DNA of 64,000 nucleotides from Lawsonibacter sp. (GCA_022795855.1 JAAWHL010000001.1:12478-76477), one strand, 5' to 3'. Positions 1-4,232 are shown, counted from the stretch's first letter. Translations and numbers: made by a program. The notes: generated by a model from the letters alone, not told the origin.

Positions 1-825
1 GATATCAGCGCCGCCCCAGGCAGCATCAGTCAGGTGAAGGAATGTACCTTGGCACTGATGCAGCTGGCAAAGGGGGAGGGGATAACGGTTTTTGTCATCG
101 GCCACGTGAATAAGGAGGGGTCCATTGCCGGGCCCAAGGTGTTGGAACATATGGTGGACTGTGTGCTCTACTTTGAAGGAGAGCGGAACATGGCCTACCG
201 GATTCTTCGGGCTGCGAAAAACCGGTTTGGAGCAACCAATGAGATCGGCGTGTTTGAGATGGAGGACGGTGGCTTGGCTGAGGTGCCGAATCCCTCCGAG
301 GCGCTTCTGTCCGGGCGGCCCGTAGATACGCCCGGCACCTGTGTAACCTGCGTGATGGAGGGCATCAGACCTGTTTTGGCAGAGATTCAGGCGCTGGTAG
401 TACCGTCCAGTTTGGGAAATCCCCGCCGGGTGAGCAATGGATTTGACTTTAACCGCTCCATGCTCCTGCTGGCTGTGCTGGAGAAGCGAGGCGGACTGAT
501 ACTCGGAGGGTGCGACGCCTACCTGAACGTAATTGGGGGCCTGTCCTTGGATGAACCGGCTGCCGATTTGGCCGCTGTAATCTCTCTGGCCTCCAGTTTT
601 CGGGACAAGCCTCTCGCAGGGGATTTGGCGGCCATTGGAGAGGTGGGATTAACCGGTGAGCTGCGGGCGGTCAGTTCTTTGGGACAGCGGCTGAGTGAGG
701 TGAGGCGTCTGGGGTTTACCAAATGCCTTATTCCGAAACGAACGCAGGGGAAAATTTCAGTTCCGGACGGACTGGAACTGATTCGTGTCGGCAATATTCG
801 AGAGGCCATGGCAGCCTTGCTGTGA
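1..825 (+). CDS. radA: DNA repair protein RadA/Sms, C-terminal part (5' truncated by window edge)
   Basis: Frame open from base 1; motifs GHVNKEGSIAGPKVLEHMVD, KNRFG and the Lon-like C-terminal GEVGLTGELR. Confidence 0.95.
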   Translation, partial: DISAAPGSISQVKECTLALMQLAKGEGITVFVIGHVNKEGSIAGPKVLEHMVDCVLYFEGERNMAYRILRAAKNRFGATNEIGVFEMEDGGLAEVPNPSEALLSGRPVDTPGTCVTCVMEGIRPVLAEIQALVVPSSLGNPRRVSNGFDFNRSMLLLAVLEKRGGLILGGCDAYLNVIGGLSLDEPAADLAAVISLASSFRDKPLAGDLAAIGEVGLTGELRAVSSLGQRLSEVRRLGFTKCLIPKRTQGKISVPDGLELIRVGNIREAMAALL

Positions 826-1123: not shown

Positions 1124-1387
1124 CAGCGGCCGAAGACCGCTGTGCAATAGCCAAGCGCGAATGCGTTTTGGGCAATTAGAACGTCAAAAACGTTCGCCGC
1201 TTGTGATTTTGGTGAGCTAGCGAATGGCAGACGGGAAATGAAACGTAAGCCAGGAGGAAAACTCCCACGGGGCTGTTCCAAGGGGGGACACTGCCTCAAC
1301 AGGCGAAAAAAGATTTTCGGCGGCATACCGGAAGTCTGTTTGGAGTCTTTATTGGAAGAAAGAGTAGGTAAAGCCCGACAATGGAGG

Positions 1388-1416
1388 TTGAACATAGTCT
1401 GGCTTTGTGCTATACT
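1388..1416 (+). promoter_or_regulatory. Sigma-A-type promoter P1 with extended -10, no downstream CDS
   Basis: TTGAAC-17 bp-TATACT with TG at the extended -10 position. Confidence 0.6.
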
Positions 1417-1422
1417 GCAAGA

Positions 1423-1670
1423 CAGATGAGATTTGACAATGTTTGTGGGCCATCGCACATGAAGACGAAAAACTGCTCAGCAAGTACATGGAAACAAAGA
1501 GTAAAGGTGCTATGGCGATATGCCGGGGTGCGCCCGGCGGCCTTTCACAATTGTGGGCTGGCAGCAGTCAAGCTGGCGCAGAAAAGAGGCATTCGGTGTA
1601 GGTTCAATGTCAAAGAATTGCCAGAGAACATTTGTCAAGGGGACTTTCACCCAAAAGATGAAAGCCCCCT
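1423..1670 (+). ncRNA. Candidate rod-shaped small RNA (6S-like or antisense RNA)
   Basis: Downstream of P1; nested pairings found by eye (1433-43/1627-38, 1457-63/1603-10, 1472-81/1557-68, 1522-27/1533-38); ends at a hairpin. Confidence 0.3.
1636..1669 (+). repeat. Inverted-repeat copy A (internally palindromic)
   Basis: CAAGGGGACTTTCACCCAAAAGATGAAAGCCCC; 28 of 33 positions match the reverse complement of 2418-2450, including an 18-bp exact core. Confidence 0.9.
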
Positions 1671-1690
1671 ACAAATCGGGATTTATTACC

Positions 1691-1810
1691 TTAATACTGA
1701 TGAAAGAATATAAGTACAAGCAAAACACTAATTGCTCCCAGTACACTTACAACGATTACTTTCCAAAAATCATGCTTTTCTCTTTCAGTCATATCAATAT
1801 ACCATTTCAT
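1691..1810 (-). CDS. Unannotated 39-aa single-pass membrane peptide (MKWYIDMTEREKHDFWKVIVVSVLGAISVLLVLIFFHQY)
   Basis: Hand-translated; GGAGG RBS at 1821-1825, ATG, 19-residue hydrophobic stretch, TAA; own promoter upstream. Confidence 0.65.
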   Translation of the reverse strand: MKWYIDMTEREKHDFWKVIVVSVLGAISVLLVLIFFHQY

Positions 1811-1859
1811 GCTCTGTTAACCTCCATAACTCCCGATTTGTTGAACGAACCTATTCTAA

Positions 1860-1888
1860 AGTATAGCACAAAGTCAATCGGTGTTCAA
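1860..1888 (-). promoter_or_regulatory. Sigma-A-type promoter P2 for the 39-aa ORF, near-identical to P1
   Basis: TTGAAC-17 bp-TATACT on the minus strand; shares TTGAACA and CTTTGTGCTATACT with P1. Confidence 0.65.
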
Positions 1889-1895
1889 TCCCCAT

Positions 1896-2230
1896 TGCAG
1901 GGCGCCACCTAACCGGCAAGCAATGCCCCAGGATATACCCGGCGCAACTTGTTGGTGACCAATGTCCCCCAACCCCCCGGTGCAACAGCGCAGCTCCGCC
2001 CGATGCACAAGCCGCTGGTGGCGTCTGCAGGCCTGTCCATACTGGCAGGGAAGGGACGCCCGGCGGGCCTCCCTCGGAGAGCGCACGACTGCCGTAGGCA
2101 GTACCGCCGCCCGTTTGCGGGTGGTGAGTAAGTGCGCTCTTAGCAGAGGGCCGGCAAAGAGAGGGGAGCGCCCAGGTCATCCCTAGACGCTCCCGCTTCG
2201 GTTCCCTTCTGCCGGTCAATCACCGCCCCT
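1896..2230. other. GC-rich, hairpin-dense non-coding island (unidentified structured element)
   Basis: Multiple stems, e.g. 1896-1909/2017-2029, AGAGCGCAC/GTGCGCTCT enclosing two hairpins, CCGGCA..GGGAGCG/CGCTCCC..TGCCGG. Confidence 0.4.
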
Positions 2231-2417
2231 TCAGCCTGTGCCATTCTGCCACAAATGAACCGCAGTCAATGTAATGTAGTGGCTTGGTGAAACCACCCTT
2301 TATACATTACATCTCATATCTACTTCTTGACGTTCTTGACGATATCAGAGTGGATACAAACAGGTTGATTTTTCCAAAGCAGAACAAACCTGTTCTATTA
2401 TTGAGTATAAGGTAAAA

Positions 2418-2450
2418 AGGGATTTCATCTTTTGGGTGAATTCCCCCTTG
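2418..2450 (-). repeat. Inverted-repeat copy A'; also placed as terminator for the traX-like gene
   Basis: Reverse complement of copy A; on the minus strand the hairpin is followed by TTTTT, 40 bp after the traX-like stop. Confidence 0.85.
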
Positions 2451-2490
2451 AAAAATGCCCTCATAGAACGGTTTTGAGGCAAAGTTCCCG

Positions 2491-3255
2491 TCAGATGAAG
2501 CTCTGGCGAATCAGCCCCAGAATCAGCAGATGAGCGGGGTAAAAGATGTACCACAGATATTTGTCTCCGGGGAAGGACGTCCCTTTTTTGCCGTTATAGC
2601 AGAAGGTCAAGGCAACGCCCAGCAGAGGACCCAGGGCATTGACACCCCAGAGATGCAGCCAGCGGAGGGTAAACAGGCCCTCGCTCAGAATCATCCAGGT
2701 CAGCCCATATCGGGACAGGGGCATCAGCACCAGCCACAGAAGGAATTTCTTTGGGCGGGACCAGCTGTCTGTCAGGTAGAAAACCAGAATGAACAGCAGA
2801 TAACGGCCGTCTCCCTCGACGACGTTCAGAAGCTCGACGGCCGTCACCATGCCGGCGGCCAGAAGATAGCCGAGGCCGGCCCGTTTGCCGTTGCCCCACT
2901 CCAGCAGCTGCAAGGTCAGCAGGCCCAGCAGCAGGGTGAACAGGATATTTCCGTGAAATCCGAACAGGAGGAAATAGGGCCATTCCGCCAGGCAGGCGAA
3001 GACCAGTAGGCGCAGGGCATATTTTTTCCAATCCCTGGTGTGGCGGAAGCCGTTGGCAATGGAAAACAGGAAGATGGGGGCGGCGATGCGGCCCAGATAG
3101 TTGGTGCAGGACGTAAGGGCCGTAATCCAAGGAATGCTCTCCTGGCAGTTGGGATAGAGCAGGGTTTCCAGCGTCATGGAGAGGGGCCAGACGAAAGTCA
3201 GATGGTCCCAGAGCATGGACAGCAGGGCGATGGTTTTCAAGGCAAAAAAACTCAT
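2491..3255 (-). CDS. TraX-family integral membrane protein (putative acyltransferase), orphan
   Basis: LKTIALLSMLWDHL, GRIAAPIFLF..GF.HT, YNGKKG and FY.FYPAHL motifs. Confidence 0.8.
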   Translation of the reverse strand: MSFFALKTIALLSMLWDHLTFVWPLSMTLETLLYPNCQESIPWITALTSCTNYLGRIAAPIFLFSIANGFRHTRDWKKYALRLLVFACLAEWPYFLLFGFHGNILFTLLLGLLTLQLLEWGNGKRAGLGYLLAAGMVTAVELLNVVEGDGRYLLFILVFYLTDSWSRPKKFLLWLVLMPLSRYGLTWMILSEGLFTLRWLHLWGVNALGPLLGVALTFCYNGKKGTSFPGDKYLWYIFYPAHLLILGLIRQSFI

Positions 3256-3359: not shown

Positions 3360-4232
3360 ATGAACATTCAGTGGTACCCCGGACACATGACCAAAACCCG
3401 GCGGCAGATTGAGGCGGACTTGAAATATGTGGACATGGTGGTGGAGCTGGTGGATGCCCGCATCCCGGTCTCCAGCCGCAACCCGGACATTGATGCCATC
3501 TGCTCCGGCAAGCCCAGGCTGGTGATTCTGAACCGGGCGGATCAGGCCGATCCTCAAATGACCCGAGCATGGCGGGACTGCTTTCAGAGGCAGGGCTTTG
3601 CGGCGCTGGAGGCCGACTCTAAGTCGGGACAGGGGGCGGGCCGGCTGGCCGCCGCCGCCCGGGAGGCGCTGAAGGACCAGATTGCCAAGTGGCGGGAGCG
3701 GGGACAGGTGGGCCGTCCCATCCGGGCCATGATTGTAGGGGTGCCAAACGTGGGCAAGTCCACCTTCATCAACAAGGTGGCCAAAAAGAAGGCGGCCAAA
3801 GCCGGGGACCGTCCCGGCGTGACCCGGGGCAAGCAGTGGATTCACGTGGAAAGCGGCATGGACCTGCTGGACACCCCGGGGATTCTGTGGCCCAAGTTCG
3901 AGGACGAGCGGACCGGAATGTACCTGGCCTTTACCGGAGCGGTGAAGGACGAGATTATGGATACCGAGACGCTGGGCTGTCATCTGATGGCCCTGCTGGG
4001 GGAGCGCTACCCGGAGGCTCTGATGCGGGGCTATAAGCTCAGCGAGCTTCCCGCCCGCCAGGAGGAGGAGAACGACGTGTCCTACGGCTGCCGCCTGCTT
4101 CAGGCCGCCGCCCAGCGCCGGGGAATGCGCATTTCCGGCGGCGAGCTGGATACCGAGCGCATGGCCCGGGTGCTCCTGGATGAGTTCCGGGGCGGAAAGC
4201 TGGGGAGATTTACGCTGGAGACGCCCGGCTGA
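3360..4232 (+). CDS. rbgA: Ribosome biogenesis GTPase YlqF/RbgA
   Basis: IQWYPGHM, GVPNVGKS, PGVT, DTPG. Confidence 0.95.
   Translation: MNIQWYPGHMTKTRRQIEADLKYVDMVVELVDARIPVSSRNPDIDAICSGKPRLVILNRADQADPQMTRAWRDCFQRQGFAALEADSKSGQGAGRLAAAAREALKDQIAKWRERGQVGRPIRAMIVGVPNVGKSTFINKVAKKKAAKAGDRPGVTRGKQWIHVESGMDLLDTPGILWPKFEDERTGMYLAFTGAVKDEIMDTETLGCHLMALLGERYPEALMRGYKLSELPARQEEENDVSYGCRLLQAAAQRRGMRISGGELDTERMARVLLDEFRGGKLGRFTLETPG

What the first reader, a model, noticed from the sequence alone, without database searches (positions are those of the whole stretch)
1388..1888. Two near-identical sigma-A promoters facing each other in an apparently empty intergenic region
Seen: P1 (+, 1388-1416) TTGAACAtagtcTGgCTTTGTGCTATACT and P2 (-, 1888-1860) TTGAACAccgatTGaCTTTGTGCTATACT. 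Both have 17-bp spacing and an extended -10, and they share a 14-bp exact block. They point at each other about 440 bp apart with a hairpin (1639-1669) between them. P2 drives a peptide ORF; P1 drives no ORF with an RBS. Inference: a co-regulated convergent sRNA/peptide module, possibly sharing an operator. This is the best candidate here for an undescribed system.
Basis: partly seen in the sequence, partly recalled or inferred. Interest (0 to 1): 0.68.

Follow-up and report, generated by a model that had tools for sequence, protein, structure and literature searches.

The report
Promoters of two nested mobile cassettes
The two look-alike promoters are copies of one promoter module carried by a widespread, apparently undescribed family of small mobile gene cassettes in mouse-gut Clostridia; they face each other because one cassette inserted into the remnant of another, not because they form an sRNA/peptide circuit.

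Summary
P1 (+1388-1416) and P2 (-1888-1860) are as described and occur only here in the genome.

P2, the 39-aa membrane-peptide gene and the hairpin belong to one discrete 694-nt element, E1 (1623-2316). Its layout is a left-end hairpin, cargo on the opposite strand, an internal promoter, a ~400-nt GC-rich structured block, and a right end ...ACATCTCA.

About 40 non-redundant copies occur in mouse-gut Oscillospiraceae, Lachnospiraceae and other Clostridia. They carry many different cargo genes and are flanked by a CA...CA repeat. One third sit at the same codon (S-I-x-x-Q|K) of large serine recombinase (LSR) genes. One filled site and a 98% identical empty site show the insertion is precise.

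The same peptide cassette lies in another genome with no P1 nearby. P1 belongs to an older, partial cassette (~1267-2462). It reads into a frameshifted pseudogene whose homology continues across E1.

The way these cassettes move is inferred only: LSR-type recombination at a CA dinucleotide. The GC block matches no Rfam family and its function is unknown.

The parts
1223..1267 (+). 5' remnant of a native gene (ATGGCAGACGGGAAATGA, 'MADGK*'), cut off at the left edge of the outer cassette remnant
   Evidence: 83% identical to the start of intact genes in G125 and G075 (L151, L152: GGAGGTAACGAATGGCAGACGAAAAATTAAAC...).
1267..1387 (+). Upstream module of the P1-type promoter; part of the outer, partial cassette E2
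   Evidence: Window 1265-1416 is 74-75% identical to the equivalent module in G202:C69 (L155) and G101:C145 (L149). In L149 the module continues into a canonical right end...CCACCCTTTACATAGTACCTCTCA.
1388..1416 (+). P1: sigma-A-type promoter (TTGAAC, 17 nt, TGTGCTATACT). It is the cargo promoter of outer cassette E2. Predicted TSS is about 1423.
   Evidence: It matches the promoter part of a profile built from other cassettes, though only weakly (E=0.013). Unstranded RNA contigs begin at 1447 and none lie to the left.
1425..1621 (+). First half of a frameshifted pseudogene fragment transcribed from P1 (E2 'cargo')
   Evidence: 68% nucleotide identity to the C-terminal coding part of an intact gene in G127:C41 (L150). 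The reading frame shifts within the fragment.
1622..1623 (.). Left copy of the CA dinucleotide that flanks E1
   Evidence: The left flank ends in CA in 37-38 of 40 copies and the right end of the element also ends in CA. Removing E1 plus one CA restores the pseudogene frame...VKELP|YLLLDVLDD....
1624..1669 (+). Left end (LE) of inner cassette E1: GAGAACATTTGTCAAGGGG plus the hairpin at 1639-1669. On the minus strand it is the terminator-like hairpin of the cargo mRNA.
   Evidence: Four exact hairpin cores in the genome. Conserved in relatives and in about 40 cassettes. Metagenome depth here is 50-200x that of the flanks.
1691..1810 (-). Cargo gene of E1: 39-aa single-TM peptide MKWYIDMTEREKHDFWKVIVVSVLGAISVLLVLIFFHQY, with SD GGAGG at 1825-1821
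   Evidence: There are 17 related clusters of 35-69 aa with a conserved MKWYxDMxExEK..F.KVI...GAI..L.VP motif. An ortholog lies in cassette L068. No Pfam or NCBIfam hit.
1860..1911 (-). P2 (1888-1860) plus its conserved upstream module: the internal cargo promoter of E1. Predicted TSS is about 1853.
   Evidence: Covered by a profile built from 37 other cassettes (window 1857-2316, E=1e-139). Also.
1912..2316 (.). GC-rich structured block and right end (RE) of E1, ending ...CATTACATCTCA. The right CA copy is at 2315-2316.
   Evidence: 86% identical to C45:16281-16674 and 91% to C59:1-129. Found in 9 of 41 relatives and many Clostridia. Fold z-score is -4.05 on the minus strand and -3.05 on the plus strand. 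The consensus has 129 pairs, 95% canonical. No Rfam match even at E<=10.
2317..2415 (+). Second half of the pseudogene fragment split by E1
   Evidence: Colinear with the L150 protein: YLLLDVLDDIRVDTNRLIFP against CHLLDDSRIDASRVVFP.
2419..2462 (-). Inverted LE copy: the left end of outer cassette E2. It also serves as the terminator-like hairpin after the TraX gene (2491-3255, minus strand).
   Evidence: 84-87% identical to the E1 LE. It sits in the same position relative to a P1-type promoter as in L155. TraX matches Pfam PF05857.

Best explanation
The region holds two nested members of one family of small, non-autonomous mobile gene cassettes.

The inner cassette, E1 (1623/1624-2316), is complete. 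It has a left-end hairpin module, a 39-aa membrane-peptide gene on the opposite strand, the internal promoter P2, a ~400-nt GC-rich structured block, and a right end ...ACATCTCA.

E1 inserted precisely at a CA dinucleotide into the already decayed cargo region of an older, partial cassette, E2 (~1267-2462, opposite orientation). E2's own cargo promoter is P1 and its left-end hairpin is the inverted copy at 2419-2462.

P1 and P2 are therefore paralogous copies of one promoter module. They converge only because of the orientation in which E1 landed. The hairpin between them is E1's left end and cargo terminator. P1 now transcribes a pseudogene remnant towards E1.

Shown:
- The element boundaries.
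- The family, its variable cargo and its conserved promoter.
- The CA...CA flanks and the precise filled/empty pair.
- The hot spot at one codon of large serine recombinase genes.

Inferred (about 0.4-0.5):
- Cassettes move through a circular intermediate by a trans-acting large serine recombinase crossing over at CA, as TndX and TnpX do at GA.
- The GC block is a cis-acting structured module, or an RNA, needed for that process.
For: Element boundaries
- An Oscillibacter MAG (L068) carries the same cassette, 89% identical over exactly window 1623-2316, in an unrelated context without P1.
- 40 non-redundant copies share the same ends and carry different cargo: MazG, Peptidase_C39, Flavodoxin_4, Lactamase_B, DUF3658, TraX, ankyrin, and 39- and 56-aa peptides.
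- A profile built without the window matches 1857-2316, including P2, at E=1e-139.
- The LE and the block are 50-200x deeper than the flanks in mouse-gut metagenomes, while the peptide and P1 regions are at single-copy depth.

Precise insertion
- Left flanks end in CA in 37-38 of 40 copies and the RE ends in CA. The target consensus is ..[T/A]A.CA|RAA.....T.
- 13 of 40 left flanks are LSR N-terminal exons ending S-I-x-x-Q.
- Removing the G016 element leaves an intact 561-aa LSR.
- G009 has the uninterrupted 98%-identical gene, and the DNA is colinear without indels.

E2 and P1
- The P1 module is homologous to the cassette promoters in L149 and L155. L155 runs promoter, DUF4303 cargo, LE hairpin. 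L149 has a canonical RE.
- Pseudogene homology to L150 runs across E1, and is in frame only if E1 plus one CA is removed.

Precedent
- The LSR TndX needs only a central GA but strongly prefers a site inside a conserved coding domain (PMC4430133).
Against: - No circular RE-LE junction, tandem array or empty allele of the window, C45 or L085 sites was seen in metagenome contigs. These nulls are uncalibrated and come from Logan contigs, which drop rare variants.
- No autonomous copy encoding a recombinase was found.
- The window's own 93%-complete assembly has no LSR hit at E<=1e-20.
- E2 lacks most of a GC block and a right end, so calling it a cassette rests on its promoter module and LE copy.
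- Transcription starts at P1 and P2 are not mapped; the RNA evidence is unstranded contigs.
- Covariation in the block is modest: 26 compensatory cells against 10.7 +/- 3.2 in shuffles. The folded strand is undetermined: 74 GU against 79 AC cells in helices common to both strands.
Confidence: 0.75

Rival explanations
1. It proposes a type I toxin-antitoxin-like module in which P2 makes a toxic membrane peptide mRNA and P1 makes a convergent antisense or partner sRNA. The two share a bidirectional terminator and perhaps an operator.
For: - The peptide is small and hydrophobic with a strong SD.
- The window mRNA folds with 5'UTR-3'UTR pairing, z = -4.1.
- An RNA contig at 1496-1789 crosses the hairpin, so a P1 read-through antisense to the 3' part of the peptide mRNA is possible.
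Against: - The element boundary separates P1 from the peptide gene.
- The orthologous cassette in L068 has no P1 and no antisense promoter.
- The 5'-3' pairing is not conserved in L068.
- P1 RNA is a pseudogene remnant with a fold z of only -1.8.
- There is no hit to Fst, Ldr, Hok-type or other families.
- Other cassettes carry ordinary enzymes in the same slot.
Confidence: 0.07
2. The cassettes are IS200/IS605-like palindrome-associated elements. A Y1 (HUH) transposase moves them as single strands, recognising the subterminal hairpins and inserting 3' of a short target motif.
For: - Both ends carry subterminal hairpins and there are no long terminal inverted repeats.
- The target motif is short.
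- The GC block folds strongly as a single strand.
Against: - The two end hairpins are unrelated in sequence.
- Y1_Tnp is absent from several near-complete genomes that carry the block: G003, G013 and G011.
- The in-frame filled/empty comparison requires a shared CA at both junctions, which fits a 2-bp crossover better than 3'-of-target insertion.
Confidence: 0.12
3. The element is a self-splicing, IStron-like intervening sequence that is removed from LSR mRNAs, with the GC block acting as the ribozyme.
For: - Insertion is at one conserved codon of diverse LSR genes.
- An otherwise intact 561-aa LSR ORF is retained.
- The block is a large conserved structure.
Against: - There is no group I, group II or any other Rfam match, even at E<=10.
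- Two thirds of copies lie in intergenic or unrelated contexts.
- The cargo has its own promoter on the opposite strand.
- No exon1-exon2 joint appears in RNA-labelled runs.
Confidence: 0.04
4. The segment between the inverted hairpin copies (1636-1669 and 2419-2450) is an invertible DNA switch.
For: A 44-nt inverted repeat at 84% identity brackets about 750 bp that contain a promoter.
Against: - The repeats are the left ends of two nested cassettes.
- No strand-changing joints appear in four metagenomes.
- No invertase gene is adjacent.
Confidence: 0.02

Closest known systems
Large-serine-recombinase transposons Tn5397 (TndX) and Tn4451/Tn4453 (TnpX) of clostridia
   Same: - The element is flanked by a directly repeated dinucleotide.
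- General target specificity is relaxed, with one highly preferred site inside a conserved coding sequence.
- The target partly resembles the joined ends.
- The hosts are Clostridia (PMC4430133).
   Different: - The dinucleotide is CA, not GA.
- The cassettes are 0.64-2.3 kb and encode no recombinase.
- They carry a conserved ~400-nt structured block and an internal promoter.
- The preferred site lies inside LSR genes themselves.
- The circular intermediate and the enzyme are not shown.
Integron gene cassettes
   Same: - They are small, non-autonomous units that each carry one variable gene plus a conserved structured recombination end.
- Many different cargoes share one preferred insertion site.
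   Different: - There is no attC-type site and no IntI tyrosine recombinase.
- Each cassette has its own promoter and terminator.
- No tandem arrays were seen.
- The hot spot disrupts the recombinase gene instead of lying beside it.
MITEs / palindrome-associated transposable elements (IS200/IS605 derivatives)
   Same: They are short, high-copy and non-autonomous, have hairpins near the ends, and are spread across genomes.
   Different: - They carry a protein-coding cargo with a promoter.
- They lack terminal inverted repeats beyond GAGA/TCTC.
- They do not co-occur with the Y1 transposase.
Type I toxin-antitoxin loci with convergent transcripts (par/Fst RNAI-RNAII, TxpA/RatA, BsrG/SR4)
   Same: A small hydrophobic peptide gene faces a promoter with no ORF, and a hairpin lies between them.
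   Different: - The partner promoter is not linked to the peptide gene in other genomes.
- The supposed partner RNA is a pseudogene remnant.
- The mRNA fold is not conserved.

Membership tests
Sigma-A (sigma-70-type) promoter | -35 and -10 hexamers at 17 +/- 1 nt spacing, conserved across homologous copies while the spacer varies | tested here: met
   TTGAAC, 17 nt, TGnTATACT in P1, P2, L068, L149 and L155, with differing spacers. The same positions are conserved in the profile built from 37 cassettes.
Sigma-A (sigma-70-type) promoter | Transcription starts 6-8 nt downstream of the -10 | tested here: inconclusive
   Unstranded metatranscriptome contigs start at 1447 with nothing to the left of it. 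They cover 1676-1835 at the highest depth, but some cross P2 (1715-1867, 1820-2002).
Type I toxin-antitoxin | Small hydrophobic toxin ORF | tested here: met
   39 aa with a C-terminal TM segment; it belongs to a conserved small-protein family. Toxicity was not tested.
Type I toxin-antitoxin | An antisense or partner RNA gene is genetically linked to the toxin gene wherever it occurs | tested here: not met
   The L068 cassette carries the orthologous peptide but has no P1 or other antisense promoter. P1 lies outside the element boundary.
Type I toxin-antitoxin | A conserved mRNA fold sequesters the 5' end or the RBS | tested here: not met
   The pairing 1841-1826 / 1686-1671 is present in the window. 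In L068, 4 of 16 positions differ without compensation and the MFE fold changes.
LSR-mobilised transposon (Tn5397/Tn4451 type) | An identical dinucleotide at both junctions, with a single copy at the empty site | tested here: met
   CA occurs at both junctions in 37-38 of 40 copies. Empty site: CAGACG-CA-GAAAAC. Filled site: CAGACG-CA-[G GAGAAC...ACATCT-CA]-GAAAAC.
LSR-mobilised transposon (Tn5397/Tn4451 type) | The element encodes its own large serine recombinase | tested here: not met
   No recombinase ORF lies inside any of about 40 cassettes, and the loci with longer upstream regions showed none either.
LSR-mobilised transposon (Tn5397/Tn4451 type) | An excised circular intermediate with joined ends | tested here: inconclusive
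   No RE-CA-LE junction was found in the held loci, the genome, JGI metagenome contigs or IMG/VR. Assemblies are a poor detector of rare circles.
IS200/IS605-derived PATE | Co-occurrence with a Y1 (HUH) transposase that recognises similar hairpins at both ends | tested here: not met
   Y1_Tnp is absent from the block-positive genomes G003, G011 and G013. The LE and RE hairpins are unrelated in sequence.
Group I / group II intron or IStron | A recognisable ribozyme core and precise RNA splicing | tested here: not met
   There is no Rfam hit at E<=10 on 881 nt and no exon-exon joint in RNA-labelled runs.
Integron cassette | An attC site recombined by an IntI tyrosine recombinase at attI, forming arrays | not tested
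   No arrays were seen. IntI was not searched for. The ends do not resemble the RYYYAAC/GTTRRRY core sites, judged by reading the sequence.
   No Rfam hit, fold z of -1.8, and the region is a pseudogene fragment.

The most novel reading that the evidence does not exclude
These cassettes would be a new class of mobile gene cassette in gut Clostridia. Each is a self-expressed unit of promoter, one cargo gene and a terminator. Their ~400-nt conserved structured module (RNA or folded DNA, absent from Rfam) would direct or assist precise CA-site insertion. The primary homing site would lie in the catalytic-domain codon (S-I-x-x-Q|K) of large serine recombinase genes. That would amount either to an integron-like cassette economy run by serine recombinases, or to a parasite that reversibly disables the integrases of other mobile elements.
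Probability: 0.3. Interest if true: 0.85.

Novelty: new variant of a known kind. Interest (0 to 1): 0.66.

Why it matters
For the original question, the answer is ordinary. A promoter pair that looks like a regulatory circuit is a by-product of nested mobile DNA. This is a useful caution when reading convergent look-alike promoters as regulatory modules.

The cassette family behind it is more interesting:
- It is very abundant in mouse-gut metagenomes, with ends and block 50-200x deeper than the single-copy flanks.
- It crosses family boundaries within Clostridia.
- It carries ready-to-express accessory genes.
- It repeatedly and precisely interrupts the integrase genes of other mobile elements.

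If its mobility and the role of the 400-nt block were worked out, that could reveal a new route of gene-cassette exchange in gut anaerobes. It could also provide compact promoter-cargo-terminator units and a site-specific insertion system for organisms that are hard to engineer.

Tried and rejected
1. **Regulon idea.** The 29-mer occurs only twice in the genome.
2. **826-1267 as a diverged GC block and right end of E2.** I first thought so from an alignment by eye. I rejected it because the profile finds nothing there and the region is native intergenic DNA plus a gene-start remnant with homologs elsewhere.
3. **6S-like or dedicated sRNA from P1.** There is no Rfam hit, the fold is weak, and the region is a pseudogene.
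4. **Intron or IStron.** There is no ribozyme match and no spliced joint.
5. **IS200/605 mobilisation.** There is no co-occurrence with Y1_Tnp.
6. **Invertible segment.** No inversion joints were seen.
7. **Strand of the GC-block structure.** The minus strand folds 27 kcal/mol better. In helices common to both strands, however, GU and AC cells are equal (74 against 79), so the strand is left undetermined.
8. **Block as coding sequence.** The alignment has 1- and 2-nt indels, so it is not coding.
9. **Search for empty alleles, circles or arrays.** All were negative.
10. **Autonomous relatives.** None were found in loci with long upstream regions.
11. **Literature.** Four full-text searches found no description of such cassettes.

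Full report
**1. The observation**

P1 (TTGAACATAGTCTGGCTTTGTGCTATACT, + strand, 1388-1416) and P2 (TTGAACACCGATTGACTTTGTGCTATACT, - strand, 1888-1860) are exactly as reported.
- Both score as TTGAAC, 17 nt, TATACT with an extended -10 TG.
- The degenerate pattern occurs twice in the window, against 0 expected, and nowhere else in the 2.5-Mb, 63% GC assembly. There is therefore no regulon.
- The similarity extends to 52 nt at 77% identity (1365-1416 / 1860-1911).
- Eleven of the 14 shared bases (TGTGCTATACT) form a common extended -10 in this genome, found at 7 sites.
- The hairpin at 1639-1669 and the 39-aa ORF (1810..1691, GGAGG at 1825-1821) are real.

**2. P2, the peptide and the hairpin are one discrete repeated element**

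The hairpin with its 5' flank (GAGAACATTTGTCAAGGGGG...) occurs at least five times in the genome, including an inverted copy at 2419-2462. Window 1916-2316 is 86% identical to C45:16281-16674 and 91% identical to C59:1-129.

In relatives, only these two modules are conserved, not the sequence between or around them. In four mouse-gut metagenomes the two modules are 50-200x deeper than the flanks. P1, the peptide gene and the neighbouring genes sit at single-copy depth.

Most came from mouse-gut Oscillospiraceae (Oscillibacter, Colidextribacter, Pseudoflavonifractor), Anaerotruncus, Neglectibacter, Lachnospiraceae, Butyricicoccus and Christensenellales.

Forty non-redundant complete copies (0.64-2.3 kb) share one plan:
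- R-GAGAACATTTGTCAAGGGGG followed by a hairpin (LE).
- One variable gene on the opposite strand.
- A promoter, TTGAAy, 17 nt, TGnTATACT.
- A ~400-nt GC-rich block.
- The right end ...CAyTACATCTCA (RE).

Cargo genes include MazG, Peptidase_C39, Flavodoxin_4, Lactamase_B, DUF3658/DUF1835, DUF4303, TraX, ankyrin-like proteins, HNH or restriction-like proteins, and 39-aa and 56-aa membrane peptides.

A DNA profile built from 37 copies, without the window, matches window 1857-2316, including P2, at E=1e-139. An Oscillibacter MAG (L068) carries the same peptide cassette, 89% identical over exactly window 1623-2316. There it sits directly after the stop codon of an unrelated gene, with no P1-like sequence nearby. 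E1 is therefore 1623/1624-2316.

**3. Insertion is precise and marked by CA**
- Left flanks end in CA in 37-38 of 40 copies and the element itself ends in CA. Beyond that, the target shows only a weak consensus (..[T/A]A.CA|RAA.....T), which partly mimics the element's own ends.
- Thirteen of 40 left flanks are the N-terminal 28-33 codons of large serine recombinase (LSR) genes ending S-I-x-x-Q. In most of these the right flank continues with K-x-x-L....
- Removing the element plus one CA from the G016 locus yields an intact 561-aa LSR.
- Genome G009 has the uninterrupted gene at 98% protein identity. The DNAs are colinear without indels: empty CAGACG-CA-GAAAAC against filled CAGACG-CA-[G GAGAAC...ACATCT-CA]-GAAAAC.
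- Nearly identical LSR second exons carry three different cassettes, in L069, L091 and L095. L029 and L068 carry different cassettes at one non-LSR site. The sites are therefore reused.

**4. What P1 is**

Sequence 1265-1416 (P1 plus about 120 nt upstream) is 74-75% identical to the promoter modules of cassettes in two other genera.
- In L155 the module drives a DUF4303 gene followed by an LE hairpin, in the same arrangement as window P1...2419-2462.
- In L149 the same module is joined to a canonical RE.

Downstream of P1, 1425-1621 is 68% identical to the C-terminal coding part of an intact gene in G127 (L150), but it contains a frameshift. The homology resumes at 2317, immediately after E1. 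It is in frame only when E1 plus one CA is removed...VKELP|YLLLDVLDDIRVDTNRLIFP against ...VIELPCHLLDDSRIDASRVVFP.

P1 is therefore the cargo promoter of an older, partial cassette, E2 (~1267-2462, opposite orientation). Its cargo had decayed and E1 later inserted into it.

Left of 1267 lies native DNA: the radA 3' region, terminator-like hairpins, and the truncated start of a gene (ATG at 1223) that is intact in other genomes. My first guess, that 866-1267 was a diverged GC block, was wrong.

**5. Transcription**

Only unstranded metatranscriptome contigs are available.
- They cover 1447-1634, 1496-1789, 1602-1800, 1676-1835 (the deepest), 1715-1867 and 1820-2002, and nothing lies to the left of 1447.
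- This fits an active P1 and an expressed peptide gene.
- It also shows read-through of the hairpin and transcription across P2, on a strand that cannot be determined.
- The hairpin is followed by only a weak U tract on either strand.

**6. The peptide**
- It has no Pfam or NCBIfam match.
- It belongs to a small family: 17 clusters at E<=1e-3 in 1.84 billion representatives, 35-69 aa long. The conserved pattern is MKWYxDMxExEK..F.KVI...GAI..L.VP..FH.
- One family member's gene call even reads through a P2-type promoter.
- The window mRNA folds with a 5'UTR/3'UTR pairing at z = -4.1, but that pairing is lost in L068.
- The five codon differences between the two orthologs are all non-synonymous.
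- Nothing shows that the peptide is a toxin, and no antisense promoter lies inside the cassette.

**7. The GC block**
- It matches no Rfam 15 family, even at E<=10 on 881 nt.
- It folds better than shuffled sequence on both strands: -194.7 kcal/mol, z = -4.05 on the minus strand, and -167.4 kcal/mol, z = -3.05 on the plus strand.
- A 34-sequence alignment gives 129 consensus pairs, 95% canonical.
- Compensatory double changes are few but exceed all 300 shuffles: 26 cells against 10.7 +/- 3.2, maximum 22.
- In the 71 pairs predicted on both strands, GU and AC cells are equal (74 against 79). The folded strand, and whether the block acts as RNA or DNA, therefore remain open.
- Indels that are not multiples of three exclude a coding function.
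- A candidate divergent promoter (TTCAAC, 17 nt, GATAGT) precedes the block in the majority subfamily. It is poor in the window copy (reading).

**8. Mechanism**

The features that point to a large serine recombinase crossing over at CA through a circular intermediate are:
- A single shared dinucleotide at both junctions.
- Short dyad symmetry at the joined ends (TCT-CA-AGA).
- Relaxed targets that resemble the ends.
- One strongly preferred site inside a conserved coding sequence.

TndX of Tn5397 shows the same features with GA and the Fic-domain site (PMC4430133). I therefore favour a trans-acting LSR crossing over at CA, at about 0.4-0.5.

Evidence against or missing:
- No circle junction, array or empty allele was found at three loci.
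- No autonomous copy was found.
- The family is absent from IMG/VR phage contigs.
- The window's own assembly has no LSR hit.

A Y1-transposase route is less likely, because Y1_Tnp is missing from several near-complete carrier genomes. An intron-like route is unlikely.

**9. Verdict**

The proposed sRNA/peptide circuit is not supported as a unit. What is present is a complete peptide-carrying cassette nested in a cassette remnant, both from a family I could not find described in four literature searches, in Rfam, or in annotated phage and plasmid records.

I classify it as a new variant of known kinds: non-autonomous, site-specific mobile cassettes. The 400-nt module is unexplained, and the habit of homing into integrase genes is notable.

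Noticed in passing
L167 (Campylobacter coli plasmid NZ_CP017026.1, locus 2830-3180): About 110 nt upstream of aph(3')-VIIa lies an ~80-nt piece of the GC block (81.7% identity; profile E=1e-15). It is preceded by an LE-like ATTTGTCAAGGGG. It is followed by a TTGACA, 17 nt, TGCTATAAT promoter and a GTTGATAAATC leader like those of the cassettes. The same piece occurs in a human-faecal phage-labelled contig (MT838581.1). A relative of this cassette family may have delivered a resistance gene to Campylobacter plasmids.
   Followed up: partly
genome contig C45:15333-16674 (L022 553-1894): A second complete cassette in the same genome sits immediately upstream of the polC start codon. Its ankyrin-like cargo appears frameshifted relative to the intact 270-aa version in L084.
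   Followed up: partly
L029 vs L068; L069, L091, L095: Orthologous insertion sites, one intergenic and one in an LSR gene, hold cassettes with different cargo in different genomes. This suggests either repeated use of one site or cargo swapping between fixed ends.
   Followed up: partly
window 1631-1636 (minus strand) and all LE copies: On the cargo strand the left end reads ...CCCCC-TTGACA-AATGTTCTCT. That is a perfect -35 hexamer pointing out of the element, which could form hybrid promoters with flanking DNA.
   Followed up: no
L085 6999/7068 to 7649 (run X72): Some contigs join the end of the GC block directly to the LE hairpin, so cargo-less versions of the cassette exist.
   Followed up: no
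relatives G003:C9 122176-126006, G016:C3 147937-151812, G006:C8 110489-114304: Several relatives carry three large serine recombinase genes in tandem. One genome (G003) has 30 LSR matches, so targets for this cassette family are very abundant.
   Followed up: no
window 1-825, 2491-3255, 3360-4232: The neighbouring genes are ordinary. There is a gene with a RadA-like 3' part (identified by reading the translation), a TraX-family membrane protein (PF05857) and an RbgA/YlqF-like GTPase (also by reading). The inverted LE copy, with its T run, probably terminates the TraX gene.
   Followed up: partly
L041 (Bacterium 1xD42-87), cargo-strand ORFs at 2046-2914: A group II intron reverse-transcriptase-like ORF fragment lies near a cassette right end. 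It is probably an unrelated neighbour.
   Followed up: no
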